The notes under the pieces: generated by a model | What the model was told of the DNA's origin: nothing | Databases searched by the model: none | The model's input: the letters and a program-made list of their open reading frames with translations, nothing else | Translations under genes and position numbers: made by a program | DNA from: an uncultured Acidimicrobiia bacterium | GTDB taxonomy: Bacteria > Actinomycetota > Acidimicrobiia > Spongiisociales > JAOTWH01 | DNA: 64,000 nt | NCBI GenBank assembly: GCA_964347285.1 | Contig: CAYFYE010000004.1 | Span: 731 to 64,730 of the forward strand | Direction: 5' to 3' | Shown: in pieces, positions 5,754 through 18,929 of the stretch | How positions within the stretch are numbered: position 1 is the first letter of the stretch | Layout of the letters: each line of letters opens with the position of its first letter

Positions 5754-6781
5754 GTGGCCGCAATCGCGTCCAGGGCCGCCCTCACCGTAGCGTCGTCGAC
5801 GTGAGCCACCACAGGATCGCCGATGCTACGCAGCAGCACCATTCGCAGCCCGGCCCGGTCCCGCTTCTTGTCGAGCTCGATCAGGTGGCTCACCGCCCTT
5901 CCTGCGGCCTCCACCTCGACAGGTAGACCGAGGCGAGCGACCGCCTCTCTCACCCGTCCGCTGCCGGTGAAACCGACCGCCTCAGCCGACGCCGCCGCTG
6001 CGGCCACCATTCCGACCGCGACGGCTTGCCCGTGGGTCATCTTGCAAGCCACCTCGACGGCGTGGCCGATCGTGTGACCGAAGTTCAGAAAGATACGTCG
6101 ACCCCGGTCCTCGAGATCTTCCCGCACCAGAGCGACCTTGACTGCTACCGCCCGCTCCACCATCTCTTTGATCGGCGCCGATGCTCCCCTCTTCTCCAAC
6201 AGCTCGACCAGACCGGGATCGCCCACAAAGCCCGCCTTCAATGCTTCGGCGGCACCGTCGGCCCACAGCGTTGGGGGTAGTGCATCGAGCACATCGAAAT
6301 CGATCACTACCCGGGCCGGAAGGGCAAAGGCTCCTACCAAGTTCTTGCCCACCACGTTGACACCGCTCTTGCCACCGATGGCCCCATCTACCGCCCCCAG
6401 CAGAGTGGTGGGCACGTGGACCGCCTCCACGCCTCGCAGATACACGGCAGCCACGAAACCGGCCAGGTCGGTGACCGAACCTCCGCCCACCCCCACGATG
6501 GAGTCGTCCCTCGTGAAGCCGATCTCGTTGAGCCACAGCGCCGTTTCCTCGACCACGGCCAGCGTCTTGGCAGCGTCGCCTTCGGGCACCACTCGCACCG
6601 CGACCTCGAGCCCCGATCGGCCGAGGTGGCGGCCCACTCGCCGGCCCCAGCGAGCTGCACCGGGCTGGGTGATCACGGCAGCCCGGGCCCGCTCCGGCCG
6701 AGCCGGCAATAGCTCCGCATCGTCGAGGAGGTCTCGGCCGAAGACGATCTCCGCCCCGCGTTGGATCAGGATGCGTTCCAC
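5750..6781 (-). CDS. aroB: 3-dehydroquinate synthase
   Basis: GGGSVTDLAGF, VPTTLLGAVDGAIGGKSG, LNFGHTIGHAVE, HGQAV, DKK. Confidence 0.96.
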   Translation of the reverse strand: MERILIQRGAEIVFGRDLLDDAELLPARPERARAAVITQPGAARWGRRVGRHLGRSGLEVAVRVVPEGDAAKTLAVVEETALWLNEIGFTRDDSIVGVGGGSVTDLAGFVAAVYLRGVEAVHVPTTLLGAVDGAIGGKSGVNVVGKNLVGAFALPARVVIDFDVLDALPPTLWADGAAEALKAGFVGDPGLVELLEKRGASAPIKEMVERAVAVKVALVREDLEDRGRRIFLNFGHTIGHAVEVACKMTHGQAVAVGMVAAAAASAEAVGFTGSGRVREAVARLGLPVEVEAAGRAVSHLIELDKKRDRAGLRMVLLRSIGDPVVAHVDDATVRAALDAIAAT

Positions 6782-7284
6782 AACTCGGCCACTTCGTCGA
6801 CGACCTGGTCCACGCCCTTGTCGCCGACGTCGACCACCTCGTGGGCGGCAGCGGAGTAGGCCCGCTCCCGCTGGGTCGCCAGCGCCCTCAGTTGCCGGAG
6901 AGGGTCCTGGTCGGCCAGGAGAGGGCGACCGGTGCCATTTCCCACTCGTCCGGCCAGTACGGTTGCCGGCGCCGACAGCCAGACGACGAGACCGGAGCCC
7001 CGCATCGCCGCCACGTTGTCGGCACGAAGGACGGTGCCGCCCCCGGTCGCCACCACCATTCCGCTACGGTCGGCCAACCGTGCCACCTCGGCCGCCTCGA
7101 GATCTCGGAACGCCTGCTCACCGCGTCGGCCCCACAGCTCGCCGACCGAACAACCCATCCGGTCGGCGATGAGCTCGTCGGTATCGATGGGGGCCAGACC
7201 GAGCCGCTCGGCCAACGACATCGCCACCGAGGTCTTGCCCGACCCCATCATGCCGATCAGCCAGATATTGCTGGGCCGGGCCAC
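6766..7284 (-). CDS. aroK: Shikimate kinase
   Basis: IWLIGMMGSGKTS, GEQAFRDLE, ATGGG, RPLL; GTG start at 7284 overlaps the aroC stop. Confidence 0.95.
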   Translation of the reverse strand: MARPSNIWLIGMMGSGKTSVAMSLAERLGLAPIDTDELIADRMGCSVGELWGRRGEQAFRDLEAAEVARLADRSGMVVATGGGTVLRADNVAAMRGSGLVVWLSAPATVLAGRVGNGTGRPLLADQDPLRQLRALATQRERAYSAAAHEVVDVGDKGVDQVVDEVAELWNAS

Positions 7285-8435
7285 TAGAACTCCGCCAGGC
7301 GTTTGCGGTAGCTCTGGACGGCTCCCGCGAAATCCTCGACCGTGTCTCCCCCGAACTTGCGCTGCGCCTCCTGGGCGAGCACGACGGCGGTCATGGCCTC
7401 GGCTACCACCCCGGCCGCCGGCACCGCGCACACGTCACTTCGCTCTCGAAAGGCAACGGAGGGTTCTTTGCTATCGACGTCAACGCTGTCCAACGGCCGC
7501 ATCAACGTGGACAGCGGTTTCATGGCAGCCCGGAGGCGAAGCCGCTGGCCGGTCGTCATTCCCCCTTCGATCCCTCCGGATCGATTGGTGGGACGGACGA
7601 AGTCTCCGTCGCGATAGGAGATCTCGTCATGGGCCTCCGAGCCGCGCCGGCGAGCGCCCACGATTCCATCACCGATCTCCACCGCCTTGATTCCCGGGAT
7701 CGACATGAGTGCCGCGGCCAGCCGGGCGTCGATTCGGCGGTCATGGTGGGTGTGGCTTCCCAGACCGGCAGGCACCCCGTAGCCGAGGACCTCGACCACT
7801 CCGCCCAGCGTGTCACGATCCTCCTTGGCGCTCTCGATTTCGGCCACCATGGCTTCGGAAGCCGTAGTGGAGAAGGCCCGCACCGGTGAAGCGTCGACAC
7901 GCTCCCGATCCCCCGGCTCCGGAACTCCCCCATCCGCCTCAACCGACCCGATGGCCACGACATGGCTGAGCACATCGACCCCGATGACTGCCAGCAACCG
8001 CCGAGCCAGGAAGCCGGCCACAGTACGGGCCGCGGTTTCCCGGGCCGAAGCCCGCTCCAGAATGTCACGAGCGTCATGCGTGTCGTATTTGAGCATGCCG
8101 GCCAGATCTGCATGCCCGGGTCGCGGCTGGGTGAGGCGGCGACGCGCCGGTCCCGGAGACAGAGGCGCCATCTCTTCCTCCCACTTGGGCCATTCGGTGT
8201 TGCGTACCAGCACAGCCACCGGACTTCCCAGGGTTTGCCCGAAGCGAATCCCCCCCAGGATCTCGACCTCGTCGCGCTCGACAGCCATGCGTCTCCCCCG
8301 GCCCGTGCCGTGCCGACGCCGCGCCAGCTCGGCCTGGAGATCGCCCAGCGCTACATCGAGCCCGGCGGGAAGGCCTTCGATCACCGTCACCAGGGCGGGG
8401 CCATGGGACTCGCCCGCTGTGAGGAATCGGATCAT
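7284..8435 (-). CDS. aroC: Chorismate synthase
   Basis: TAGESHGP, RPGHAD, ERASARETA, GGIEGGMT, KPLST, ERSDVC. Confidence 0.98.
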   Translation of the reverse strand: MIRFLTAGESHGPALVTVIEGLPAGLDVALGDLQAELARRRHGTGRGRRMAVERDEVEILGGIRFGQTLGSPVAVLVRNTEWPKWEEEMAPLSPGPARRRLTQPRPGHADLAGMLKYDTHDARDILERASARETAARTVAGFLARRLLAVIGVDVLSHVVAIGSVEADGGVPEPGDRERVDASPVRAFSTTASEAMVAEIESAKEDRDTLGGVVEVLGYGVPAGLGSHTHHDRRIDARLAAALMSIPGIKAVEIGDGIVGARRRGSEAHDEISYRDGDFVRPTNRSGGIEGGMTTGQRLRLRAAMKPLSTLMRPLDSVDVDSKEPSVAFRERSDVCAVPAAGVVAEAMTAVVLAQEAQRKFGGDTVEDFAGAVQSYRKRLAEF

Positions 8436-8527: not shown

Positions 8528-9097
8528 CTACTTGAGGATCTGCTGTCCCGTGCTGAGCTGGAACACGCTGTCCCCAAACATGATGACCGCCGTAGTCTCT
8601 GTGAGGCTGACCACCTTGTAGACGTCCGCAAACGTGTCGCCTACGCCGACATCGAACGTCTCGCCGTTCACGGTGATGGTGGCCCGCAGGACCCCACCCA
8701 CGGTGCGAATCTCGACGAGGGCCACGGTCACTTCGGGAGCGAACCCGTTTTCGGGTGGGACCACGCCATTCTCGGATGGGACCAGGCTGGGGCCCACCCC
8801 CGGCTGCCCGAAGAAGGGCGAGTCCTCGGTGATGAGAGGGCGGAAGGGATCCCGGGGCTGCGATATCTGTGCCTCCCCGGTGATTTCGATGGCGCCGGTC
8901 ACTTCCAGTGGTTGATCCACCGGGGATCCCACGCCGGCCAGGGGGCCCTCGAGGCCCGACCGGCTCGGGGCGAACAGCCCGGAGTCCACCACCGCCCAGC
9001 CGGAGGCCACCCCGGTGGCGATCAGCAGGGCGGCCGCCACCGTGGCCACCAGGCCTCGGCCCCGGCGTGGCTCATGAAGTCCTCGTGGTTCGATCAT
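8528..9097 (-). CDS. Type IV pilus-associated PilP-like protein with N-terminal TM helix
   Basis: Coupled to pilO (ATGA overlap); hydrophobic N-terminal segment; PRDPFRP motif; Pro-rich linker; beta-rich C-terminal domain. Confidence 0.6.
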   Translation of the reverse strand: MIEPRGLHEPRRGRGLVATVAAALLIATGVASGWAVVDSGLFAPSRSGLEGPLAGVGSPVDQPLEVTGAIEITGEAQISQPRDPFRPLITEDSPFFGQPGVGPSLVPSENGVVPPENGFAPEVTVALVEIRTVGGVLRATITVNGETFDVGVGDTFADVYKVVSLTETTAVIMFGDSVFQLSTGQQILK

Positions 9098-9759
9098 GGC
9101 GTCTCCTCCCCGCCCGCGTCGGTGGGAGCGACCTCTCCGCTCTCCTCGGCGGGAGCCTCTTCGCCCTCCTCGGCGGGAGCCTCGCCGCCCTCGGGGGCCG
9201 GGGCCAGCGGCGTCGGCAGGTTCGTTTCCAGCGTGAAGATCTGGGCGCTGATGCTGGAACTGACGCTGAGATTGCCGTCTTCATCGAACGAACTCGTGAT
9301 CGACAGCGCATCGATACGGACGAGGCGGTCCAGGTCGGCCAGGCCGTACAGGAATCCGAGTATCTCGAAGAACTGCCCCTCGACGGCGATACTCACGGGC
9401 ACCGAGACGAACGGCAACCCTTCGGTGGCCTCGGGAAGTGACGGTGTCAGGCTGCTGATCTCGACCCCGGCTTCGATCGCCAGGAGGTTGACGTCCTCGA
9501 TGAACTGCGCCAGCTCGGGAGTGCGGGGTATCGAGCGCTCCAGCTCCGCCGCGGCCCGTCTGAATGTCAGCTCGCTCTCCTGGATGGCCAGCAGAGCCGC
9601 CTTCTGACCGCGCAGGGCCTGGGCCTCGGTCTGGGCCGTGGCGATCTGATCGTCCGAGTCGGAGATCTCGCTTCGCTTGGGGTTGATGAAGAAGATGAAC
9701 CAAACCACCGTGACGACCAGCACCCCCAGGACCACGAGCAGAAGCGTGCTCCTCCTCAT
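9094..9759 (-). CDS. pilO: Type IVa pilus alignment protein PilO
   Basis: N-terminal TM, coiled coil, LERSIP..PELAQFIEDV, GQFFEILGFL..L..LDRLVRID; follows pilN. Confidence 0.88.
   Translation of the reverse strand: MRRSTLLLVVLGVLVVTVVWFIFFINPKRSEISDSDDQIATAQTEAQALRGQKAALLAIQESELTFRRAAAELERSIPRTPELAQFIEDVNLLAIEAGVEISSLTPSLPEATEGLPFVSVPVSIAVEGQFFEILGFLYGLADLDRLVRIDALSITSSFDEDGNLSVSSSISAQIFTLETNLPTPLAPAPEGGEAPAEEGEEAPAEESGEVAPTDAGGEETP
9142..9183 (-). repeat. 18-bp direct repeat (period 24) encoding acidic EAPAEE repeats in the PilO tail
   Basis: CTCCTCGGCGGGAGCCTC at 9142-9159 and 9166-9183. Confidence 0.8.
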
Positions 9760-10364
9760 CAGAACTCGGGAATCCTCCGCTCGAGCCGATCGGAGAGGGC
9801 CTCATCGGTGATGAACGTCGACGAGGTGAAGCGCACCACCGGCATCTCACCGATCAGGGCCTCCGAGAGGTTGGTGACCCAGGTTTTGTCAACCCCCGGG
9901 AAGCTCGTTGAGTCGAGGGCGCGCAGCCAGGCGGCGACATCGGGGAAGGCGAAGGCGGTCCCGGAGATCTGGATTTCCCCAATGGCGCCTGTTTCGGGGT
10001 TGACGGTGCCGGAGAAGGAATCGATCCACACCCGGTCGGGAATCACCCGGCCCAGGTCGTTGAGGAGGCGGCCCCAGACCACGTCATTCTCCAAGGCGGC
10101 GGCCAGCACCAAGACTGAGGCGTCGAATTCGGCTTTGATCCCCTCGAACTCGGACAGTTCCTCGACCTCCAGGCGGAGATCGTCGACGACGTCCTGCTCC
10201 TGGGCCAACTCGGCCTCCTTGTCGTCGACCTTCCCCTGCCACCACAGCGTGGCCGCTACCAGCAACGCCACATAGGCGATGCCGAGCACTACCCAAAGAG
10301 AGCGGCGTCGGCGGACCTTGGCCTTCTCCAACGCCTCCGGCGGGAGAAGGTTGATGGCCCGCAT
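9759..10364 (-). CDS. pilN: Type IVa pilus alignment protein PilN
   Basis: MRAINLLP motif, TM helix, W..LLNDL..VIPDRVWI; TGATG coupling to pilM places the start at 10364. Confidence 0.9.
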   Translation of the reverse strand: MRAINLLPPEALEKAKVRRRRSLWVVLGIAYVALLVAATLWWQGKVDDKEAELAQEQDVVDDLRLEVEELSEFEGIKAEFDASVLVLAAALENDVVWGRLLNDLGRVIPDRVWIDSFSGTVNPETGAIGEIQISGTAFAFPDVAAWLRALDSTSFPGVDKTWVTNLSEALIGEMPVVRFTSSTFITDEALSDRLERRIPEF

Positions 10365-11434
10365 CAGATCGTTCCCCAAAGAGCCAGGCCGACGCTCGTC
10401 GGTAGGACGGGCTGGGCGTCGAGCAGCTCGGCCTCGGTCAGATGTACGCGGCCCACGTCGACGCGTTCGAGCACCTTGGCCGCCTCGATCGGCGTGTCGA
10501 GGTCCCGACCCAGCCGGGCGGCGAGGTGGGGCAGGCGAGCTCCATTTCCCGCCACCACGATGCGCTCCAGGGCCGGTTCCCCTGATTGCCCGAGATAGAA
10601 GTTGACCGACCCCCGAATCTCATCGATGAGAGAATCTGCCTCGGCGGTGAGGAGGCGACGAGCCGCCTCCTCCTGCTCGTCGCCCGGCTCGGTCTCCCCG
10701 TCTCGCACCACGCCCAGGCGTCTCTTGAGAGACTCGGCCTCGTCGACTTCGATCCCCAATCCCGTGGCGAGAGTGGTAGTGAAGGCGTCTCCGCCCCGGG
10801 GCAGAATCCGCACGAAACGGGCCACACCGGCTCGCACGAACACGATCTGAGTGATCGTTCCGCCGATGTCCACGATCCCCTGCGGTGCCTCCTCGGCCAG
10901 CGGAAGCTCGGCCCCGATGGCGGCACGCACGAGGGCGAACGGCTGGAGGTCTACCGCCAAGGGAGCGATCGAGGCTGCCGAAGCCACCCGCACCAGGCCC
11001 TCGACGACCTCCTGGTGAGCCGCCACGACGAGAATCGACATCATCGCTTCCCCCTCGGGCGTGGTGAACTCCTCGATGGGAATGAAGTCGAGACGCGCCT
11101 CCTCGACCGGCATCGGGATCGAGTCCTGGACCTGGAACGGGAGGGCCTCGGCCAGCTCTTCCTCGCTCATCTGGGGAACATCGACCTGGCGAACAATCAC
11201 CCGCTGGTTGGCGGTGCCGATGACCACCCGCTTCTTCGGAAGCTTGGCCCGCTTCCACAGGGCGGCGACGGCTTCCGCCACTGCGTCTTCGTCGATGAGC
11301 TCCCCGGCCTCCACGGACCCCGGCGGCAGGGGCATCTCGGCAAAACGCCGAAGGATGAGTTTCGACTTTCGTGAATCGACTGCGGCAGCGCGCACAGCCA
11401 CACTGCCAATATCGAGGCCAACCGTAACCGGCAT
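10364..11434 (-). CDS. pilM: Type IVa pilus actin-like protein PilM
   Basis: VGLDIGS, VIVRQVDVP, FQVQDSIPMPVEEARLDF, VDIGG, GG..FT, GNGARL. Confidence 0.95.
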   Translation of the reverse strand: MPVTVGLDIGSVAVRAAAVDSRKSKLILRRFAEMPLPPGSVEAGELIDEDAVAEAVAALWKRAKLPKKRVVIGTANQRVIVRQVDVPQMSEEELAEALPFQVQDSIPMPVEEARLDFIPIEEFTTPEGEAMMSILVVAAHQEVVEGLVRVASAASIAPLAVDLQPFALVRAAIGAELPLAEEAPQGIVDIGGTITQIVFVRAGVARFVRILPRGGDAFTTTLATGLGIEVDEAESLKRRLGVVRDGETEPGDEQEEAARRLLTAEADSLIDEIRGSVNFYLGQSGEPALERIVVAGNGARLPHLAARLGRDLDTPIEAAKVLERVDVGRVHLTEAELLDAQPVLPTSVGLALWGTI

Positions 11435-11555
11435 CTCCGCTCCGCCTCACCGTTGCTCGGCGTGGTCCTTTCCGGACCCAACACAGCCCGGAAGAACTAC
11501 ATGTATGTGATTTGGAGGCTAGCAACCCCCCCGCCCGTCACCAAGGACCCGACCC

Positions 11556-12326
11556 TCAGATGCCCCGATACCAATCGGCCAGCTGCTGCCCCACCGCCAG
11601 GGCCGCGAACGCTCCGGTCACCAGGGCCGGGCCGAAGGGAACCGCATCTTTGCGGCCGCGCCGGCCGGTAACCAGGAGAGCGAGAGCCACCAGCCCGCCG
11701 CCGAGAACGGCCAGAGCGACGCCTGCGCCGAGGACTCCCCACGACTGATAGGCGAGGAAGAGCCCGAGCAGGGCAGCCAGCTTGACGTCACCGAAGCCGA
11801 ATCCTCCCCTGGCGACCAGAGCTACGACGAAGAGTCCACCGAAATAGGCCGCAGCCCCGGCCAGCGCCCGGACGTAGGAGTCCAAGTCGCCGTCCAGCAG
11901 CGCCCCGGCGAGCAGGAGTCCGGCACCGACCGCCAGGCCGGGAAAAAGGATCCGGTTGGGGATGCGCTGGTGATCGAGATCGGTGAGCACGAGCACCAGG
12001 CCGACGGCAACGAACCAGAGGTAGGCCGGCAGCGTCCACGAGGCTCCGATGACGACCACCGTGGCACCCCACAGCCCTGCCGTCGCCGCTTCGACGATGG
12101 GATAACGCGGCGAAATGGCGCCATCACAGTCTCGGCAACGTCCCCTCAGCAGGAACCACGACAGCACCGGGATGTTGTCGCGAGGCCGGATCGGGGCTCC
12201 GCACGCCGGGCAGGCGGAACCGGGACTGACGACGGAGCGTCCGGCCGGCACCCGGTACGCCACCACGTTGAGAAAGGAGCCGGCGATCAACCCCAGTGCG
12301 CCGGTCACGACCGTTAGAGCTACCAA
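11556..12326 (-). CDS. pilD: Prepilin peptidase / N-methyltransferase (A24A)
   Basis: GSFLNVVAYRVP, CPAC..CRDC zinc motif, SPRYPIVE, catalytic DLD and GFGDVKL; TTG start ~12326. Confidence 0.95.
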   Translation of the reverse strand: MVALTVVTGALGLIAGSFLNVVAYRVPAGRSVVSPGSACPACGAPIRPRDNIPVLSWFLLRGRCRDCDGAISPRYPIVEAATAGLWGATVVVIGASWTLPAYLWFVAVGLVLVLTDLDHQRIPNRILFPGLAVGAGLLLAGALLDGDLDSYVRALAGAAAYFGGLFVVALVARGGFGFGDVKLAALLGLFLAYQSWGVLGAGVALAVLGGGLVALALLVTGRRGRKDAVPFGPALVTGAFAALAVGQQLADWYRGI

Positions 12327-12781
12327 CTGTTTCCAGTGCAGTCGGTTACATCGTCCACGTCGGCCTCCGAACCTTTGCAGGTATAGCGGCCCGCATCCGG
12401 CCCCACTTGCACCAGCTTGATACCGAACCAAGTGCCGCTGCCCGATCGAGCGTACAACAGGACCTGTCCGTTGTCACCGGCATCGACTGCATCACCCACG
12501 ACCACGTGGATCGAGTGGGGCTGGGCGCCGCTGAAATCGAGGCTGGGCTCTTCGAGGCCCAGCTGGGCGACGTCGCCGGTGAAGCCCGAGCCGTCGGCGC
12601 CGATGATCGCCTCGACTTTGGCCCCGTTGACGAGATCACTCTTGGCGGCACTGTCCTGGGCACGACTGCGGAAGCCGAGATAGGTCGGAATGGCGATGCC
12701 GAGCAGAAGAGCGATGATCAGAACGACCACCATCAGCTCGATGAGGGTGAATCCCGTCTCGCGATTGCGGGCGATATGCAT
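12320..12781 (-). CDS. Second type IV pilin (class III signal peptide)
   Basis: RETG|FTLIELMVVVLIIALLLGIAIP with E5; C-terminal Cys pair. Confidence 0.92.
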   Translation of the reverse strand: MHIARNRETGFTLIELMVVVLIIALLLGIAIPTYLGFRSRAQDSAAKSDLVNGAKVEAIIGADGSGFTGDVAQLGLEEPSLDFSGAQPHSIHVVVGDAVDAGDNGQVLLYARSGSGTWFGIKLVQVGPDAGRYTCKGSEADVDDVTDCTGNSW

Positions 12782-12807
12782 CTCGTGCTCCGAACGCTTC
12801 CCCCCTG

Positions 12808-12834
12808 ATATCGGCAGTGCATCGGGAGGCCTGA
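12808..12834 (-). promoter_or_regulatory. Putative sigma-28/WhiG-type promoter of the second pilin
   Basis: Minus strand TCAGG-N15-CCGATAT, just downstream of the pilA terminator. Confidence 0.6.
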
Positions 12835-12847
12835 AGGATTCCCAACG

Positions 12848-12881
12848 AGAAGACGGGCCCGGGGTTCCGGGCCCGTCTTCT
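12848..12881 (-). terminator. Strong hairpin downstream of pilA
   Basis: 15-bp perfect stem AGAAGACGGGCCCGG / CCGGGCCCGTCTTCT with a 4-nt loop, 20 nt after the pilA stop. Confidence 0.85.
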
Positions 12882-12901
12882 GCGTCGTATGCGCCTGGCG
12901 C

Positions 12902-13378
12902 TTACTTCCAGCCGTCGGCGGTGTAGCCGGCGGGCAGCGTGAAGGGAGCGGTCGTGTCGTCGGCCGGACACGGCGCCGTGGCCGCCGCTTTGGCATAGCC
13001 AACGCCGGCCGATTCGCCGACCCAGATCGAGAACACTCCGCCGGAGGCGCTCTCCCGCTCGAGGCAGACCGAGCCGGCGCCGGTGGTCACCGCCACGGCG
13101 ACCGCGCTGTCGGCGTCCAAGTCGATGCTGGGCTCGATCGTCTTCAGCTCGTCCTCGGTCGTCGAGTAGACGTTGTTCTCCGTCCACCAGGCCTGCTCGG
13201 CCAGGAGGGCGTTGCGCAGATCGCTCTGAGCGCTGCGGTCCTGGGCGTTCTTGCGGAAGCCCAGGAACGAGGGGATGGCAATGGCGACGAGCACTGCAAT
13301 GATGAGCACCACGACCATCAACTCGATGAGGGTGAAGCCTTCGTCCTTGTGAAGGCGTTCACTCATCCTTTTGAGCAT
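12902..13378 (-). CDS. pilA: Type IV major pilin candidate
   Basis: KDEG|FTLIELMVVVLIIAVLVAIAIP, AQSDLRNA, Cys pair; GGAGG SD, own promoter and own terminator. Confidence 0.93.
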   Translation of the reverse strand: MLKRMSERLHKDEGFTLIELMVVVLIIAVLVAIAIPSFLGFRKNAQDRSAQSDLRNALLAEQAWWTENNVYSTTEDELKTIEPSIDLDADSAVAVAVTTGAGSVCLERESASGGVFSIWVGESAGVGYAKAAATAPCPADDTTAPFTLPAGYTADGWK

Positions 13379-13432
13379 GTGCGAACCTCCTGAGACATTC
13401 GCGCCGGGCCGTACCTCGGCCTGACCAGGGGA

Positions 13433-13460
13433 ATATCGGTTGCGCCTTTTCGCGACTTGA
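13433..13460 (-). promoter_or_regulatory. Putative sigma-28/WhiG-type promoter of pilA
   Basis: Minus strand TCAAG-N16-CCGATAT. Confidence 0.7.
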
Positions 13461-13568
13461 GCGCTTCATGTGGTGGTTCGGCTACCCACCGTATGACTAG
13501 TCATCGAGGGCTCAGCGGTAACGGCGGAGTCGGCACCGAGGCGGAGCCGGAGGGTCGAGGGCCTTGAC

Positions 13569-14792
13569 TCAATTGAGCAGGTTGGCCACGTTGAACATCG
13601 GCAGGTAGAGCGCGATGAGGATCCCGCCAACCGTGGTACCGAGCAGGATGATCAGCAGGGGCTCGATGAGGCTGGTGAGGGCGTTCACGGTGTCGTCGAC
13701 CTCGCGGTCGTAGAAGTCCGACACCTTGGCGAGCATCTCGTCGATGGCGCCGGTCTCCTCGCCCACCGCCATCATCTGCACGACCATGGGCGGGAACACT
13801 GGATGGCGATCCAGCGGCGAGGCCATCGACTCGCCCTGTTTCACCGAATCTCTCACGTCGACCAGGGCTCTGGCCAGGACGGCGTTTCCGGCCGTCTGGG
13901 AGACGATCTCGATGGCGTTGAGGATGGGAACGCCGGTGCGGCTCAGCACCGACAGGCTGCGCGAGAAGCGGCTCAGTGCCGTCTTGTGGGTCAGTTTGCC
14001 GAAGACAGGAATCTTCAGCTTGAAGGCATCGAAGGCAGATCGCCCCGACTCGGTGGCAATCCAGCGGCGCAACCCAAACACGACGGCGATGATCAGCAGC
14101 ACGGCGACGTACCAGTAGGTCGACAGGATGTTGCCGGCGCTGATGAGGGCCTTGGTGGGGAGCGGCAGGTCGCCGCCCAGCTCGGAGTACATGCCCTCGA
14201 ACATCGGCACGACGAAGATGAGCATGGCCGTCACGATCACCGCCACCAGGCCCAGGACGACGATGGGGTAGGCCATCGCCGACTTCACCTTGGATCGCAG
14301 GGTGACCGTGGCCTCCATCATGTCGGCCAGTCGCTCCAGCGTTTCGTCCAGGACACCGCCGACCTCACCGGCCCGGACCATTGCCACGAAGAGGTTGTTG
14401 AACACTTTGGGGTGCTTCGACATCGCGGCCGACAGGCTGGAACCCTTCTCGACCTCGCCCCTCACCTCGCCCACGACGGTGGCCAGGGCAGCACTCTCGG
14501 TCTGCTGTTCGAGGATCGACAGGGTGCGGATCAAGGACAAGCCGGAATTCACCATCGTGGCGAACTGTCGACTGAAGATCGCGATCTCCTTCACTTTGAC
14601 CCGATTGGACAGAGCGGGGATCTTGATCTCCATCTGGAGAGCAGAAACCTTCTTCTTCTCGACCGAGAGCGGAACCATGCCCCGCTCCCGGAGCGTTCGA
14701 ACGACCGCGCCGGCCGAATCGCCCTCGAGTTCGCCGCTCAGGACGTTCCCGGACTTGTCCCTGACCTTGTATGCAAACGTTGATGCGCTCAT
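13569..14792 (-). CDS. pilC: Type IV pilus platform protein PilC (T2SS F family)
   Basis: FSRQFATMVNSGL, VRAGEVGGVLDETL, KVKSAMAYP, GEETGAIDEML, LPMFN. Confidence 0.96.
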   Translation of the reverse strand: MSASTFAYKVRDKSGNVLSGELEGDSAGAVVRTLRERGMVPLSVEKKKVSALQMEIKIPALSNRVKVKEIAIFSRQFATMVNSGLSLIRTLSILEQQTESAALATVVGEVRGEVEKGSSLSAAMSKHPKVFNNLFVAMVRAGEVGGVLDETLERLADMMEATVTLRSKVKSAMAYPIVVLGLVAVIVTAMLIFVVPMFEGMYSELGGDLPLPTKALISAGNILSTYWYVAVLLIIAVVFGLRRWIATESGRSAFDAFKLKIPVFGKLTHKTALSRFSRSLSVLSRTGVPILNAIEIVSQTAGNAVLARALVDVRDSVKQGESMASPLDRHPVFPPMVVQMMAVGEETGAIDEMLAKVSDFYDREVDDTVNALTSLIEPLLIILLGTTVGGILIALYLPMFNVANLLN

Positions 14793-16387
14793 CAGCCCTT
14801 ACCAACCAGATTCCGGAACTCCTCGGGGCTCTGGGAGTGATCGACTGCCGCGTCGTAGGAGACCTTTCCTTGTCTGACCAAAGCGGCCAGCGACTGATCC
14901 ATCGTCTGCATCCCGTACTTGGCGCCGGCCTGCATTGCCGAGGCGATCTGGTGCGTCTTGCCCTCACGGATCAAGTTGCGAATGGCGGAGTTGGCCACCA
15001 TCACCTCTACGGCCGGAATTCGCCCCCTGCCGTCTACGGTCGGCAGCAGCTGCTGGGACACGACCGCCTGGATGGAGCCGGACAGCTGGACCCGGACCTG
15101 CTGCTGCTGATGGCTGGGAAAGACGTCGATGACGCGATCGATCGATTGCGGGGCGTCCTGGGTGTGCAGCGTGCCCAGCACGAGATGGCCTGTCTCGGCG
15201 GCGGTTATTGCGGTTGAGACGGTCTCCAGATCCCGCATCTCGCCCACCAGGATCACGTCGGGGTCCTGACGGAGCGCGTGCTTGAGAGCCGCGGCAAACC
15301 CCAGAGTGTCGGTGCCCACCTCCCGTTGGTTGACGATGGCTTCTTTGTGCCGATGCATGAATTCGATGGGGTCTTCGACCGTCATCACGTGGCATTTTCG
15401 AGTTGCGTTGACGACGTCTATCAATGAAGCGAGCGTGGTCGACTTCCCCGAGCCGGTCGGCCCGGTGACGAGGACCAGGCCGCGTGTCAGCTTGGCGAAA
15501 TGGGCAATGATCGGCGGCATGGCCAACTCGGTGAGGGAGAGGATCTCGTTGGGAATGGCTCTCATGACCGCTCCCACCGAATCTCGTTGGAAGAACACGT
15601 TGACCCGGAAGCGGCCCTTGCCGGGAAGCGGATGCGAGCAATCCAGCTCCCGCGTCTCTTCGAGCTGCTCGCGCTGGCGGCCGGTGAGGATCTCGTAGAT
15701 CATCGAGCGAAGGACGGCCGGTAACAGCATCGGGAAATCATCGATCGGCGTCAGCTCGCCGTTGATCCGGATCTGGGGAGGCGATCCGGCAGTGAGATGT
15801 AGATCGGATCCGCCCCGCTCGAGCAGAGTCTCGAGGAGTTCGTTGACGTGGGGACGGTCACCTTGCTGCGCTTCGGCAATGACTTCGATACCGCGGGGCG
15901 CGGCAACGCCCTCCTGAGCGTCGCCGGCGGCGGATTCGGCCAGCCCGGCGTAAGCCGCCTTGATGAGCAGCTCGAGCGGCTGCTTGTGCGCCAATCCCAG
16001 CACCACCTCGCCCCCGGTGGCCCGGCGCAGCATGGCCAGCTTCTCCTGATTGAAGGGGTCGGCGACGGCCATCACGATTCGTCCGGTCTCGTCGATGCTC
16101 ATCGGCAGCGCTGCCAACCGGCGGGCCACCTCCGGGTCGAGGCGCCGCATCGCCGCCGGATCGGGTTGATCTCCGGTTTTGGGATCGAGGCTGAAGAAAT
16201 CCAGGCTGAGCTCTCCGGCCACCACGGAGAGAATGTCCTCACTCCGCACCCGCCCCTCGTCGACCAGCAGGCGCGGCAGCGGAGTGCCCGACTCCTCGGC
16301 TCGCTGAAGCTGGTGCTCCAGGTCGTCCTTGGTGAGGAGACGGTTATCGACCAGGAGTTGGCCGAGCTGCCGTGCGACCTTGCTCAT
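14792..16387 (-). CDS. pilT: PilT retraction ATPase with N-terminal MshEN/T2SSE_N-like extension
   Basis: GGSDLHL, GPTGSGKSTT, TVEDPIE, RQDPDVILVGEMRD, AETGHLV, PilT signature AIRNLIRE; core starts at about residue 180 of 531. Confidence 0.93.
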   Translation of the reverse strand: MSKVARQLGQLLVDNRLLTKDDLEHQLQRAEESGTPLPRLLVDEGRVRSEDILSVVAGELSLDFFSLDPKTGDQPDPAAMRRLDPEVARRLAALPMSIDETGRIVMAVADPFNQEKLAMLRRATGGEVVLGLAHKQPLELLIKAAYAGLAESAAGDAQEGVAAPRGIEVIAEAQQGDRPHVNELLETLLERGGSDLHLTAGSPPQIRINGELTPIDDFPMLLPAVLRSMIYEILTGRQREQLEETRELDCSHPLPGKGRFRVNVFFQRDSVGAVMRAIPNEILSLTELAMPPIIAHFAKLTRGLVLVTGPTGSGKSTTLASLIDVVNATRKCHVMTVEDPIEFMHRHKEAIVNQREVGTDTLGFAAALKHALRQDPDVILVGEMRDLETVSTAITAAETGHLVLGTLHTQDAPQSIDRVIDVFPSHQQQQVRVQLSGSIQAVVSQQLLPTVDGRGRIPAVEVMVANSAIRNLIREGKTHQIASAMQAGAKYGMQTMDQSLAALVRQGKVSYDAAVDHSQSPEEFRNLVGKG

Positions 16388-16409
16388 CTCCGTTCGTTCC
16401 CGATGTTCA

Positions 16410-18080
16410 CTAGGCGACTACCCGTAGGACTTCTTCCAACGTCGTCGATCCGAGGCGTACCTTCTCCAACCCGTCTTCGCGCAGGGTTTTCATGCCTTGC
16501 TCGACGGCCATTGCCTTGACCTCGTCCGAGGGCCGTCGCTCTACGGCCATCCGCTGAATCTCCTCGCTCACCAGCATCACCTCGTTGATGGCGACCCGGC
16601 CTCGATAGCCCGTCTTGGAGCAGTTGACGCACCCGGCGGCCCGGTGCAACTCGGGAAAGTCGTCGAGCGTGAACCCGAACCTGGCGAGCTCGGACGCTTC
16701 GGGTTGATAGATCTCCTTGCACTTTCCGCACAGGCGGCGAGCCAGACGCTGGGCCACCACACAATCGAGCGCCGAGCTCACCAGATAGGCCTCCACCCCC
16801 ATCTCGATGAGGCGTCCCACGCTCGAGGCGGCGTCGTTGGTGTGGAGCGTGGAGAGGACCAGGTGACCGGTCAGTGCGGCCTCGACCGCGATCTTGGCAG
16901 TTTCGGCGTCGCGGATCTCACCGACGAGCACGATGTCGGGATCGGAGCGCAGGATGGATTTCAGAGCAGTCGAGAAGAGGAGCCCGGCCTTCCTGTTGAC
17001 CTGGACCTGAGTGATTCCTTCGAGCCGGTACTCGACCGGATCCTCCACCGTGATGATGTTGACGTCGGGTTTGTTGAGGATGCCCAGCGTGGAATACAGG
17101 GTGGTGGTCTTGCCGGATCCGGTGGGTCCGGTCAGCAGGATCGCCCCGTACGGCTTCGTGTAGGAGGATCGATAGCGCTCCAGGGCGGCCGGGAGGAAGC
17201 CGAGTTCCTCGAGAGTGCCCACCGAATCTGTTTTGTCGAGGATTCGCAGCACGGCCTTCTCCCCGTACATGGACGGAAGGGTGGCGACCCGCAGATCGAT
17301 GGGGCGCCCCCCCACCCGCAGACTCACGCGGCCGTCCTGGGGCACCCGGCGCTCGGCGATGTTGATGTCGGCCATGATCTTCAGACGGGAGATCACTGCA
17401 GCGGCAATAGCGCGCGGGGTGCTCATGACCTCCTGGAGCACTCCGTCGATGCGGAAGCGCACCCGGAGGTCGCGCTCGCCCGGCTCGACGTGGATGTCCG
17501 ACGCTCGCTCGTTCACCGCCCGGGTGATCAACGTGTTGAGCAGCTTGACCACCGGCGCTTCCTCCACGGCGGCTTCCAGGCCCTCGAGATCCTCGGTTTG
17601 GTCCTCTTCTCCGAGAGCCAGATCGGCCAGGTCGGTCACCGATGCGCCGAAGCTGGACATTCGACGGATGGCCTCGCTGATGTCGGAGCGGGTGGCCACC
17701 TTGGGTGCGATGTCGTAGCCGGTGACCGCTCGCATGTCGTCGATGGCCAGCACGTTGGCGGGATCGGCCATTGCCACAACGAGCCGGTCCTCCTCGAAGC
17801 CGATCGGGACGGCGCCGTAGCGAGTGGCCAGGTAATCGGGTACCAATGCGGTGGCGGCCGGATCGATGTTCACGTTGCCGAGATCGACGTACTCCAACCC
17901 GATCTGGCGGGCGAGGACCTTGACGAGCTCGGCCTCGTCGATCAGCCCTTCGTCGACGAGCACCCGGCCCAGCGGCATGCCCGACTCGGCCTGGAGGCTG
18001 ACCGCCTTGTCGAGCTGGTCGCGACTCAGCAAGCCTTCTTCCAGCAGCATGGTGCCCAAATGGCGGGCGTCGCTCGTCAC
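16410..18080 (-). CDS. pilB: PilB extension ATPase with tandem MshEN motifs
   Basis: HLGTMLLEEGLL..PLGRVLVDEGLI..LARQ, ASDIHVEP, GPTGSGKTT, LRSDPD..GEIRD, CGKC/CVNC zinc motif; GTG 18080 after GGGGAG SD preferred over 18125. Confidence 0.96.
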   Translation of the reverse strand: MTSDARHLGTMLLEEGLLSRDQLDKAVSLQAESGMPLGRVLVDEGLIDEAELVKVLARQIGLEYVDLGNVNIDPAATALVPDYLATRYGAVPIGFEEDRLVVAMADPANVLAIDDMRAVTGYDIAPKVATRSDISEAIRRMSSFGASVTDLADLALGEEDQTEDLEGLEAAVEEAPVVKLLNTLITRAVNERASDIHVEPGERDLRVRFRIDGVLQEVMSTPRAIAAAVISRLKIMADINIAERRVPQDGRVSLRVGGRPIDLRVATLPSMYGEKAVLRILDKTDSVGTLEELGFLPAALERYRSSYTKPYGAILLTGPTGSGKTTTLYSTLGILNKPDVNIITVEDPVEYRLEGITQVQVNRKAGLLFSTALKSILRSDPDIVLVGEIRDAETAKIAVEAALTGHLVLSTLHTNDAASSVGRLIEMGVEAYLVSSALDCVVAQRLARRLCGKCKEIYQPEASELARFGFTLDDFPELHRAAGCVNCSKTGYRGRVAINEVMLVSEEIQRMAVERRPSDEVKAMAVEQGMKTLREDGLEKVRLGSTTLEEVLRVVA

Positions 18081-18115
18081 GTCGTGCTCCCCGAGAGAAG
18101 GGTTTCTCCCCCTCC

Positions 18116-18144
18116 TCGTCGGCACCTAGCGTGGCGTCCTTAAG
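18116..18144 (-). promoter_or_regulatory. Putative sigma-28/WhiG-type promoter of pilB-pilT-pilC
   Basis: Minus strand TTAAG-N16-CCGACGA in the short aroE-pilB gap. Confidence 0.55.
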
Positions 18145-18155
18145 ACATTCGGTGG

Positions 18156-18929
18156 TCAGGACGCCGCCGCCAGCGCCTCCCTCATTGCGTCTTCGGGAGG
18201 GGTCCGTCCGGTCCAGGCCCGGAAGGACTCCGCCGCCTGGGCGATCAGCATTTCCAATCCGGTCACCAGCGGGATCCCTCGGGCCCTCGCCTCGATCACC
18301 GCCGGCGTGGGCGTGCTGCCGTACGCCATGTCGAACAGTCCTTCGGCGTCGGCCAGTGACAGCGGGAGCCGCTCCCCTCTCATACCCAACGGCGTGGCGT
18401 TGACCAGTACGGACCCGCGAGCCTCTTCACCCCAGGGAACGACTAGCGCGGTGATGCCCAGTCTGTCCACGAGCTCGGTCGCCGCTTCGCGCCGGCGCGC
18501 CTGAACGGACGGCCTCCGTCCCTCTAGTGCCAAGAGAGCGGCGGCCGCTGCACCTCCCGCCCCCAGGATCGTGACCGGCGCCGCGTCGGGCAGCCCGGCT
18601 TGTTCCCAGGCCTGCACGACGCCACCGACATCGGTCAGCAAACCCTCGACTCCGGATGGACCACCCACGAGCGTGTTGACCGCTCCGGCTCGGGCGGCGT
18701 ATGGGTGCAGGTGATCGGCCAGTCCGGCGGCCCGCCGCTTGTGCGGCATCGTCACATTGGCTCCGTCGAGGATTCCCCGCCGGATCTCCTCGACTGCTTC
18801 GACAAGACGCGCGTCGTCGACCTTCCTGGCTTCGTACCGGCCCGCTATCCCCAGGGCGCGCAGGGCGGCGTTGTGGATGGCCGGCGACAGGGAATGAGCA
18901 ACGGGATCCCCGAGCAGTACCAGCCTCAC
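18156..18929 (-). CDS. aroE: Shikimate dehydrogenase
   Basis: GDPVAHSLSP, NVTMPHK, GAVNT, GAGGAA, NATPLGM, GLEMLIAQA. Confidence 0.95.
   Translation of the reverse strand: MRLVLLGDPVAHSLSPAIHNAALRALGIAGRYEARKVDDARLVEAVEEIRRGILDGANVTMPHKRRAAGLADHLHPYAARAGAVNTLVGGPSGVEGLLTDVGGVVQAWEQAGLPDAAPVTILGAGGAAAAALLALEGRRPSVQARRREAATELVDRLGITALVVPWGEEARGSVLVNATPLGMRGERLPLSLADAEGLFDMAYGSTPTPAVIEARARGIPLVTGLEMLIAQAAESFRAWTGRTPPEDAMREALAAAS

What the first reader, a model, noticed from the sequence alone, without database searches (positions are those of the whole stretch)
15851..16387. PilT fused to a PilB-like MshEN/T2SSE_N N-terminal module
Seen: a clear PilT (AIRNLIRE) of 531 aa whose core starts at about residue 180. 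The extension RQLGQLLVDNRLLTKDDLEHQLQRAEESGTPLPRLLVDEGRV parallels the adjacent PilB RHLGTMLLEEGLLSRDQLDKAVSLQAESGMPLGRVLVDEGLI (ESG.PL.R.LVDEG shared), followed by a T2SSE_N-like segment (MAVADP..). Known: canonical PilT lacks this domain; in PilB it binds c-di-GMP and docks on PilM. Inference: a duplication gave the retraction motor a regulatory or docking module, so both motors could sense the same signal or compete for PilM. Several motif Gly/Gln residues are changed, so nucleotide binding may be lost.
Basis: partly seen in the sequence, partly recalled or inferred. Interest (0 to 1): 0.7.

Follow-up and report, generated by a model that had tools for sequence, protein, structure and literature searches.

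The report
PilT retraction motor with degenerate MshEN domain
This uncultured Acidimicrobiia bacterium's pilus-retraction motor (PilT) carries the N-terminal MshEN/GSPII domain that reviews say marks only the opposing extension motor; the fusion is real, old and shared by a whole lineage, but its c-di-GMP-binding residues are gone, so it is more likely a protein-binding or regulatory handle than a c-di-GMP sensor.

Summary
ORF 14792-16387 (minus strand, 531 aa) is an intact PilT-family ATPase (TIGR01420 483 bits, residues 181-523). It is preceded by a complete two-subdomain MshEN/GSPII domain (Pfam 47 bits; the 19 Foldseek matches at E <= 0.001 are all MshEN/GSPII domains) and a roughly 30-residue flexible linker.

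The fusion is not peculiar to this genome. All 240 listed homologues, in two clades, have the same architecture. Every named one comes from an Acidimicrobiia or Actinomycetota metagenome-assembled genome (MAG). The gene order pilB-pilT-pilC is kept.

The PilT-borne domains form their own clade. That clade shows the same groupings as the neighbouring PilB domains and evolves under purifying selection (dN/dS 0.04-0.29). This points to an ancient duplication of a PilB N-domain, not a recent local one.

The c-di-GMP motif is degraded across the whole family. The motif-II glycine is A/P/T, the motif-I turn glycine is Arg, and both glutamines are lost. These changes resemble those in the proven non-binder PilF GSPII-A. 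The neighbouring PilB keeps its motif.

PilT keeps the helix bundle as conserved as PilB's but relaxes the subdomain that binds GspL in type II secretion. That weakens the idea of identical competition for PilM.

I found no paper on this architecture. Verdict: a new variant of a known kind, of moderate interest, with function untested.

The parts
14792..16387 (-). pilT gene encoding the 531-aa MshEN-PilT fusion protein
   Evidence: ORF and translation. TIGR01420 483.5 bits and PF05157 47.2 bits. Full-length AF2 model pLDDT 90.
16208..16387 (-). MshEN_N subdomain (residues 1-60): four-helix bundle carrying the two degenerate 24-residue c-di-GMP motifs (motif I residues 7-30 = 16298-16369; motif II residues 36-59 = 16211-16282)
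   Evidence: Helices 3-14, 20-33, 37-43 and 49-59 in the AF2 model. NF053729 35.5 bits, below the cutoff of 38. Key-position table.
15938..16207 (-). MshEN_C subdomain (residues 61-150), the alpha/beta fold equivalent to the GspE/PilB N1 domain, including the AVADP motif
   Evidence: Pfam MshEN match at residues 72-148. Foldseek matches to MshE, PilF GSPII, XpsE-N and EpsE-N1. Lower conservation than in PilB.
15851..15937 (-). Variable linker (residues 151-179)
   Evidence: Gappy and poorly conserved in 121 homologues. pLDDT below 50 from residue 158 in the N-domain model and 61-68 over 151-180 in the full-length model.
14792..15850 (-). PilT ATPase core (residues 180-531 plus stop) with Walker A GPTGSGKST, Asp box EDPIEF, Walker B DVILVGEMRD, His box TGHLVLGTLHT and AIRNLIRE
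   Evidence: Sequence. E 1.7e-122 to the top-ranked solved PilT chain 5zfq_A and 2.7e-121 to 6ojx_A, aligned over the whole core.
16410..18125 (-). pilB extension ATPase, 22 nt upstream, with an N-terminal MshEN domain that matches the c-di-GMP motif model
   Evidence: TIGR02538 624 bits, PF05157 80.9 bits and NF053729 59.9 bits against a cutoff of 38.
13569..14792 (-). pilC platform protein. Its ATG overlaps the pilT stop codon (TGATG).
   Evidence: Pfam T2SSF. Sequence at the junction.
9094..13378 (-). Rest of the pilus cluster: two pilins (12902-13378, 12320-12781), pilD (11556-12431), pilM (10364-11434), pilN (9759-10379), pilO (9094-9759)
   Evidence: Pfam N_methyl, Peptidase_A24, PilM_2, PilN and PilO.

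Best explanation
The gene encodes a catalytically intact PilT-type type IVa pilus ATPase. Its N-terminus carries a complete MshEN/GSPII domain joined by a flexible linker.

The domain descends from a PilB-type N-domain that was copied onto PilT early in Actinomycetota evolution, at least before the sampled Acidimicrobiia diverged. It has been inherited vertically and kept under purifying selection since then.

In this clade the residues that make the canonical c-di-GMP pocket have been replaced in a conserved way. I therefore infer that the domain no longer binds c-di-GMP in the MshE manner. I infer instead that it works as a protein-interaction or regulatory handle, like the non-binding GSPII-A 'landing pad' of Thermus PilF or the PilZ-binding N-domain of Xanthomonas PilB. 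The handle would tether PilT to, or couple its ATPase to, the cytoplasmic base of the pilus machine (PilM/PilN/PilC or an adaptor).

Shown here: the architecture, the fold, the family-wide motif changes, the phylogeny and the selection. Inferred: loss of c-di-GMP binding (about 0.7), the handle function (about 0.45) and the identity of the partner (open).
For: Architecture and fold:
- Pfam and NCBIfam hits.
- AF2 models.
- Foldseek: all 19 matches at E <= 0.001 are MshEN/GSPII domains. The best is PilF GSPII-A (9g1w), a proven non-binder.
- A profile search of PDB sequences gives the same set.

Intact motor:
- All PilT motifs are present.
- E 1e-122 to solved PilT structures.
- TIGR02538 (PilB) is far below its cutoff.

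Lineage-wide spread:
- All 120 listed homologues carry PF05157+PF00437.
- So do all 120 listed relatives of a second clade.
- 24 species genomes show pilB followed directly by MshEN-pilT.

Old and vertical:
- The PilT_N clade has SH-aLRT 99 and the PilB_N clade 99, with matching internal groupings.
- Together they separate from the PilB domains of other phyla at SH-aLRT 93.

Selection: dN/dS is 0.04-0.29 in the N-domain.

Motif decay, in PilT clade 1:
- Motif-I position 10: Gly replaced by Arg in 78%.
- Motif-II position 3: Gly replaced by A/P/T (0% Gly).
- Both Gln positions replaced by A/E and R/E.
- Motif-II position 11: hydrophobic residue replaced by R/H/Q.
- The PilB proteins of the same genomes keep the Gly residues (88-100%).
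- NF053729 scores are 28.7-37.6 bits or none for PilT_N, against 54.5-66.4 for PilB_N.

Literature:
- MshE G11L and G40I abolish binding, and the non-binder XpsE has similar changes (PMC5013675).
- PilF GSPII-A does not bind. It has Ala at the motif-II Gly and His/Arg at the Gln sites, and is proposed to be a landing pad (PMC12002112).
- The double Gln-to-Glu change abolishes binding in GSPII-B (PMC11731258).
- The GSPII domain next to the motor is needed for PilMN stimulation of PilF (PMC6325625).
Against: - No binding or interaction has been measured, so loss of c-di-GMP binding is a sequence-based prediction.
- Motif I keeps its RxLG glycine (96%) and the hydrophobic clusters, so one guanine half-site may survive.
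- Position-1 substitutions are tolerated in PilF GSPII-B (K, L), which shows the motif is flexible.
- The MshEN_C subdomain, which binds GspL in type II secretion systems, is the less constrained part in PilT (0.44 against 0.67 in PilB). The helix bundle is as constrained as in PilB (0.55 against 0.57). This fits a ligand or a new partner on the bundle better than PilB-like docking on PilM.
- In Thermus, no GSPII domain is essential for binding PilMN (PMC6325625).
- I could not check whether a second, canonical PilT exists in this genome, because the genome search was shut.
Confidence: 0.55

Rival explanations
1. The domain is still a small-molecule sensor. It would use the retained motif-I half-site and the strongly conserved helix bundle to bind c-di-GMP weakly or asymmetrically, or to bind another guanine nucleotide (cGAMP, pGpG, (p)ppGpp, GTP). 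Retraction would then be gated directly by a messenger.
For: - The motif-I Gly is kept in 96%, and the Leu cluster positions are largely kept.
- The MshEN_N bundle is as conserved in PilT as in PilB (0.55 against 0.57), while MshEN_C is relaxed.
- NF053729 scores sit just under the cutoff (35.5 bits here, 37.6 in L011).
- Some members outside this clade pass the cutoff (P0212 52.4 bits, Egibacteraceae P0243 42 bits).
- MshEN also binds cGAMP (PMC5013675).
- The motif tolerates non-Arg residues at position 1 (PMC11731258).
Against: - The motif-II Gly is absent in 100% of clade 1 and is Trp in 75% of clade 2.
- G40I abolishes binding in MshE, and Ala at this site obstructs the pocket in PilF GSPII-A.
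- Both phosphate-contacting Gln residues are lost. In the window protein one is Glu, and the double Q-to-E change abolishes binding in GSPII-B.
- No GGDEF motif lies in the window, though this says little about the genome as a whole.
Confidence: 0.2
2. The domain acts within the motor. It would be an intramolecular regulator or oligomerisation aid that stabilises or auto-inhibits the PilT hexamer, with no external partner.
For: - Deleting GSPII domains alters the stability of PilF complexes (PMC6325625).
- c-di-GMP binding at the N1D changes nucleotide affinity in Chloracidobacterium PilB (review PMC11656802).
- The clade-specific conserved charged residues (R6, D14, R16, K20, D21, E24, R48, D51) could form an interface with the core.
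Against: - The linker is long, variable and of low confidence.
- pTM of 0.64 despite pLDDT of 90 suggests no fixed docking of the domain on the core.
- Canonical PilT hexamers are stable without such a domain (general knowledge of the solved PilT structures listed).
Confidence: 0.15
3. The domain is a functionless evolutionary leftover, or the annotated start is wrong and the cell makes a canonical short PilT.
For: - The N-domain accumulates non-synonymous changes two to six times faster than the core in seven of nine gene pairs.
- The GGAG directly abuts the ATG, which is atypical spacing for a ribosome-binding site.
Against: - dN/dS is 0.04-0.29 in the N-domain across nine pairs.
- The domain is kept in frame in all 240 listed homologues.
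- Residues 1-25 are conserved, with Met1 aligned in 80 of 121.
- The AF2 model is confident (pLDDT 93-97).
- There is no stop codon or frameshift.
Confidence: 0.05

Closest known systems
Canonical PilT retraction ATPases of type IVa pili (solved PilT chains 5zfq_A, 6ojx_A, 2ewv_A and 3jvu_A)
   Same: The core (residues 180-531) aligns end to end at E 1e-110 to 1e-122. All ATPase motifs and AIRNLIRE are present. The gene sits between pilB and pilC.
   Different: Canonical PilT has only the N2D and CTD, about 345-390 aa. This protein adds a 150-aa MshEN/GSPII domain plus a linker. A 2024 review states that this N1D distinguishes extension ATPases from retraction ATPases (PMC11656802).
Thermus thermophilus PilF GSPII-A domain (9g1w), a non-c-di-GMP-binding MshEN-type domain
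   Same: It is the best Foldseek match (E 4.5e-9). It shows the same kind of motif decay: a non-Gly residue at motif-II position 3 and non-Gln residues at both position-24 sites. It is proposed to be a stable landing pad for partners (PMC12002112).
   Different: It sits on an extension ATPase, as the first of three tandem GSPII domains. Its lack of binding also depends on an N-cap helix and on contacts between subdomains, which I could not assess here.
Vibrio cholerae MshE N-terminal domain (MshEN, 5htl) and c-di-GMP-binding PilB N-domains
   Same: The two-subdomain fold is the same (TM normalised to the target 0.65-0.66). The 24+5+24 motif layout is the same. The motif-I LG, the Leu cluster positions and the motif-II turn Gly are retained.
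   Different: The motif-II Gly, the motif-I turn Gly and both Gln residues are replaced. The c-di-GMP motif model scores below its cutoff. The host protein is PilT, not PilB or GspE.
Xanthomonas PilB N-domain / XpsE N-domain (7lkm-7lko, 2d27, 2d28)
   Same: [quoted passage not shown] They are Foldseek matches at E 1e-7 to 5e-6 (PMC5013675, PMC11656802).
   Different: Sequence identity is only 15-26%. No PilZ or FimX homologue is present in this pilus cluster. The host is a PilT.
PilZ-PilT fusions of Omnitrophota
   Same: Another case of a c-di-GMP-related domain fused to the front of a PilT motor (AI notes, not checked here).
   Different: The domain family differs (PilZ, apparently with an intact motif), and so do the phylum and the origin.

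Membership tests
PilT/PilU family type IVa pilus ATPase (TIGR01420) | Whole-protein score above the curated cutoff | tested here: met
   483.5 bits against a cutoff of 319.1, covering profile positions 2-343 of 343.
PilT/PilU family type IVa pilus ATPase (TIGR01420) | Walker A, Asp box, Walker B, His box and the PilT-specific AIRNLIRE helix, with no tetracysteine zinc motif | tested here: met
   GPTGSGKST, EDPIEF, DVILVGEMRD, TGHLVLGTLHT and AIRNLIRE are read in the translation. The CxxC...CxxC motif is present in the neighbouring PilB and absent here.
PilT/PilU family type IVa pilus ATPase (TIGR01420) | Two-domain architecture (N2D + CTD only, about 345-400 aa) | tested here: not met
   The protein is 531 aa with an extra MshEN domain at residues 1-150. 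Core membership holds, but the architecture departs from the family norm.
PilT/PilU family type IVa pilus ATPase (TIGR01420) | Powers pilus retraction in vivo | not testable with these tools
   The organism is known only from metagenomes.
MshEN / GSPII (T2SSE_N) domain, PF05157 | Pfam score above the gathering threshold | tested here: met
   47.2 bits against 23.1, residues 72-148.
MshEN / GSPII (T2SSE_N) domain, PF05157 | Fold: four-helix bundle plus alpha/beta subdomain | tested here: met
   AF2 secondary structure. All 19 Foldseek matches at E <= 0.001 are MshEN/GSPII domains, with TM normalised to the target 0.51-0.69.
c-di-GMP-binding MshEN receptors (MshE type) | Two intact 24-residue motifs RLGxx(L/V/I)(L/V/I)xxG(L/V/I)(L/V/I)xxxxLxxxLxxQ separated by 5 residues | tested here: not met
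   - In the window protein, motif I has Arg at position 10 and Ala at position 24.
- Motif II has Pro at position 3, Arg at position 11 and Glu at position 24.
- NF053729 scores 35.5 bits against a cutoff of 38.
- None of the 121 clade members matches the relaxed motif of PMC5013675. That pattern also fails many PilB domains, so it is weak evidence on its own.
c-di-GMP-binding MshEN receptors (MshE type) | Measured binding of c-di-GMP | not testable with these tools
   Requires ITC, DRaCALA or DSF on purified protein.
PilB/GspE extension or secretion ATPases (TIGR02538, TIGR02533) | Score above the curated cutoff, with the zinc-binding CTD | tested here: not met
   TIGR02538 scores 184 bits against 675.65 and TIGR02533 scores 153 bits against 630.25. 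There is no tetracysteine motif.

The most novel reading that the evidence does not exclude
In Acidimicrobiia the retraction motor has turned the former c-di-GMP-binding four-helix bundle into a new, conserved sensing or docking surface. The bundle is as constrained as in PilB. It keeps one guanine half-site (the motif-I LG and the Leu cluster) and has gained clade-specific charged residues (R6, D14, R16, K20, D21, E24, R48, D51). Meanwhile the PilM/GspL-type subdomain drifts. If the bundle binds a guanine nucleotide other than canonical c-di-GMP, or binds a dedicated partner, then retraction in this class would be gated directly at the motor. The 'N1D = extension motor' rule would then give way to a view of the N1D as a general, re-targetable handle that either motor can carry.
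Probability: 0.15. Interest if true: 0.8.

Novelty: new variant of a known kind. Interest (0 to 1): 0.5.

Why it matters
Current reviews use the N-terminal GSPII/MshEN domain to tell pilus extension motors from retraction motors (PMC11656802). They place c-di-GMP control on the extension side. A whole bacterial class in which PilT also carries this domain breaks that rule.

It also shows that automatic annotation hides the architecture, because every named member is labelled only 'PilT/PilU family type 4a pilus ATPase' or PilT.

The family is a natural experiment on what the N1D does. The same domain sits on both antagonistic motors of one machine, in one case with the c-di-GMP motif and in the other with a conserved degenerate version. 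Comparing the two could show how motors are recruited to, or exchanged at, the pilus base in actinobacteria. It would also help refine sequence rules for predicting c-di-GMP binding by MshEN domains.

Tried and rejected
- Whole-genome search for a second, canonical PilT and for GGDEF/EAL genes. The genome search and the fetch from genomes were shut, so this is untested. Within the 64-kb window there is one PilT and one PilB and no GGDEF motif by a simple pattern.
- A diverse 25-sequence N-domain alignment could not seed the genome scan. A closer 10-sequence alignment worked, but its two peptide patterns limit reach to close relatives. The 24 fusion loci are therefore not a full taxonomic survey.
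- The search of the 50%-identity representative library with the N-domain alone returned mostly fragments and multi-GSPII PilF-like proteins. It gave little for the survey.
- The relaxed motif pattern of PMC5013675 matched no PilT N-domain. It also failed in 55 of 80 PilB N-domains, so I did not rely on it and tabulated key positions instead.
- I considered a recent local duplication of the neighbouring PilB N-domain. I rejected it because identity is 32% and the two domain sets form separate, parallel clades.
- I considered that the protein is a second extension ATPase. I rejected it on PilB/GspE model scores far below cutoff and the absence of the zinc motif.
- The tree cannot settle whether there was one fusion or two. 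Clade 2 joins the Acidimicrobiia PilB domains with support of only 56.
- RNA evidence for the start codon: only metagenome DNA runs hold the sequence.
- Literature searches for MshEN/GSPII/T2SSE_N together with PilT, and for Acidimicrobiia pili, found no description of the fusion.
Full report
**Observation**

The minus-strand ORF 14792..16387 encodes a 531-aa protein.
- Residues 181-523 match the PilT/PilU model TIGR01420 end to end (483.5 bits, cutoff 319.1).
- The Walker A, Asp box, Walker B, His box and AIRNLIRE motifs are all present.
- The core aligns with solved PilT structures at E 1e-110 to 1e-122.
- PilB and GspE models score far below their cutoffs, and the tetracysteine motif seen in the neighbouring PilB is absent.
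- Residues 72-148 pass the Pfam MshEN model (47.2 bits against 23.1).
- Residues 7-57 match the NCBIfam c-di-GMP motif model at 35.5 bits, just under its cutoff of 38.

**Fold**

AlphaFold2 on an alignment of 21 N-domains gives four helices followed by an alpha/beta subdomain (pLDDT 80). Residues 158-180 fall below pLDDT 50.

The full-length model on 58 sequences has mean pLDDT 90. The N-domain scores 93-97, the linker 61-68, and pTM is 0.64. This is what a well-folded domain on a flexible tether would give.

All 19 Foldseek matches at E <= 0.001 against the PDB are MshEN/GSPII domains: Thermus PilF GSPII-A (best, E 4.5e-9) and GSPII-B, V. cholerae MshE, XpsE-N, and the Xanthomonas PilB-N/PilZ complex. 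A profile search of PDB sequences returns the same set.

**Context**

The gene lies in a complete type IVa pilus cluster: pilB, pilT, pilC, two pilins, pilD, pilM, pilN, pilO, and an unassigned 189-aa ORF. The cluster is inserted between aroE and aroC-aroK-aroB.

pilT starts 22 nt after pilB ends. Its stop codon overlaps the pilC start as TGATG. The window holds one PilT and one PilB.

**Distribution**

- All 120 listed homologues (57-76% identical, 507-551 aa) carry PF05157+PF00437. Every name attached to them is an Acidimicrobiia or Actinomycetota MAG.
- A second clade, found with the divergent member P0212, gives another 120 proteins with the same architecture (538-633 aa). These are again Actinomycetota MAGs, and in the one place examined the gene order is pilB-pilT-pilC.
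- A scan of species-representative genomes returned 24 loci with MshEN-pilT directly downstream of pilB, all from Acidimicrobiia or Actinomycetota MAGs.
- PilT genes next to pilB in Bacillota, Elusimicrobiota and other phyla lack the domain.
- A partial Egibacteraceae protein also has the domain.
- No cultured organism appeared.
- The scan's two peptide patterns limit it to close relatives, so the outer boundary of the distribution is not established.

**Origin**

In a maximum-likelihood tree of 104 N-domains, the PilT-borne domains form one clade (SH-aLRT 99). The PilB domains of the same genomes form another (99). Both show the same internal groupings: window+L001+L002, L021+L023, L007+L010, and the L011/L016 group.

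With clade 2 and other divergent members added, all PilT-borne domains plus the Acidimicrobiia PilB domains separate from the PilB domains of other phyla (93). Whether there was one fusion or two is unresolved, because the relevant node has support of only 56.

The domain is under purifying selection. dN/dS is 0.04-0.29 in nine gene pairs, though in seven of the nine pairs its non-synonymous rate is two to six times that of the core.

This supports an ancient duplication of a PilB-type N-domain onto PilT, followed by vertical descent. It does not support a recent local event.

**The c-di-GMP site**

MshEN binds c-di-GMP through two 24-residue motifs. The third-position Gly of each motif hydrogen-bonds a guanine through its backbone. 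A Gly at position 10 makes the helix turn, and the final Gln contacts ribose and phosphate. G11L and G40I abolish binding (PMC5013675).

In the window protein:
- Motif I reads QLGQLLVDNRLLTKDDLEHQLQRA, with Arg at position 10 and Ala at position 24.
- Motif II reads PLPRLLVDEGRVRSEDILSVVAGE, with Pro at position 3, Arg at position 11 and Glu at position 24.

Across 120 clade members these changes are systematic:
- Position 10 of motif I is Arg in 78%.
- Position 3 of motif II is A/P/T and never Gly.
- The Gln sites are A/E and R/E.
- Position 11 of motif II is R/H/Q.

In clade 2 the motif-II position 3 is Trp in 75%. The PilB proteins of the same genomes keep these glycines (88-100%).

The c-di-GMP motif model scores PilT N-domains at 28.7-37.6 bits or not at all. 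It scores the neighbouring PilB domains at 54.5-66.4.

[quoted passage not shown] That domain has Ala at the motif-II glycine, where it obstructs the pocket, and His/Arg at the Gln sites. Its authors propose that it is a landing pad for partners (PMC12002112). A double Gln-to-Glu change abolishes binding in GSPII-B (PMC11731258).

I therefore think canonical c-di-GMP binding is lost, at about 0.7. This is a prediction. Motif I keeps its LG and the Leu clusters, and the motif is known to tolerate some changes.

**Where the constraint lies**

I compared PilT and PilB N-domains from the same 22 genomes.

| Subdomain | PilT mean pairwise identity | PilB mean pairwise identity |
|---|---|---|
| Four-helix bundle (residues 1-60) | 0.55 | 0.57 |
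| MshEN_C (residues 61-150) | 0.44 | 0.67 |

In MshEN_C, 31 positions are conserved only in PilB and 4 only in PilT. In the bundle, 12 positions are conserved only in PilT. Most of these are charged: R6, D14, R16, K20, D21, E24, R48 and D51.

MshEN_C is the counterpart of the EpsE/GspE N1 domain that binds GspL, the PilM homologue (Foldseek matches 2bh1 and 4pht; PMC6325625, PMC11656802). This result weakens the idea that PilT competes with PilB for PilM through an identical interface. It points instead to the remodelled helix bundle as the functional surface.

From the helix topology I infer that several of these residues lie at the turn end of the bundle, away from the old pocket. I could not verify this on coordinates.

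**Mechanism**

The best-supported reading has three parts.
- The protein is a working PilT motor.
- Its MshEN domain has lost canonical c-di-GMP binding.
- The domain serves as a protein-interaction or regulatory handle at the pilus base.

Precedents are GSPII-A (landing pad), the Xanthomonas PilB N-domain (binds PilZ), and PilF GSPII-C (needed for PilMN stimulation of ATPase activity, though not for binding).

The rivals are a retained or altered nucleotide sensor (0.2), an intramolecular regulator or hexamer stabiliser (0.15), and a functionless remnant or wrong start codon (0.05, contradicted by selection and conservation).

**Novelty**

A 2024 review states that the N1D distinguishes extension ATPases from retraction ATPases (PMC11656802). 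The founding MshEN paper lists many partner domains but not PilT. Full-text searches found no description of this fusion.

Database names are only 'PilT/PilU family type 4a pilus ATPase' or 'twitching motility protein PilT'.

Earlier notes of this scan reached the same reading for other Acidimicrobiia genomes. These are not independent evidence, but they show that the window is one ordinary member of the family.

I class it as a new variant of a known kind, with interest 0.5. It is a clear exception to a textbook rule and spans a whole lineage. However, its function is unknown, the organisms are uncultured, and this copy has nothing unique.

**Limits**

- The genome search and the fetch from genomes were shut. 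I could not test whether a canonical PilT or any c-di-GMP enzymes exist elsewhere in the genome.
- No RNA data exist for the organism.
- No coordinates were available for mapping residues on the models.

Noticed in passing
window 8528-18125 (minus strand): The whole pilus cluster (pilB-pilT-pilC-pilA-pilA2-pilD-pilM-pilN-pilO-orf189) sits as a block between aroE (18156-18929) and aroC-aroK-aroB (5750-8435). It lies inside the alaS-ruvX-mltG-aroE...aroC-aroK-aroB-pepP-efp-nusB housekeeping run.
   Followed up: partly
window 16410-18125 (minus strand): The neighbouring PilB N-domain keeps both motif glycines and both glutamines and scores 59.9 bits on the c-di-GMP motif model (cutoff 38). PilB is therefore the likely c-di-GMP receptor of this machine. 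Its motif starts R-H-LG rather than RLG, as in 88% of Acidimicrobiia PilB.
   Followed up: partly
window 14790-14794: The pilT stop codon and the pilC start codon overlap (TGATG), which suggests translational coupling of the retraction motor and the platform protein.
   Followed up: no
window 8528-9097 (minus strand): A 189-aa ORF directly after pilO has no Pfam match. It is possibly a lineage-specific pilus component (a PilP-like or other alignment protein).
   Followed up: no
JGI contig carrying P0366 (genes listed, no DNA held): In the second MshEN-PilT clade, pilB is preceded by genes for a Roadblock/LC7 protein, a PatA_N protein and a GPN-type ATP_bind_1 protein. This set is reminiscent of MglB/MglA-like polarity modules or actinobacterial conservons next to the pilus motors.
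   Followed up: no
L008, L015, L022, L026: pilB or pilT is split by frameshifts in several MAGs. In L022 and L026 this removes part of the PilT N-domain from the reading frame. The cause may be assembly error rather than real truncation.
   Followed up: no
P0212 clade: In clade 2 the motif-II glycine position is a conserved Trp (75%) and position 21 is Arg (72%). The aromatic side chain might occupy the former guanine pocket.
   Followed up: no
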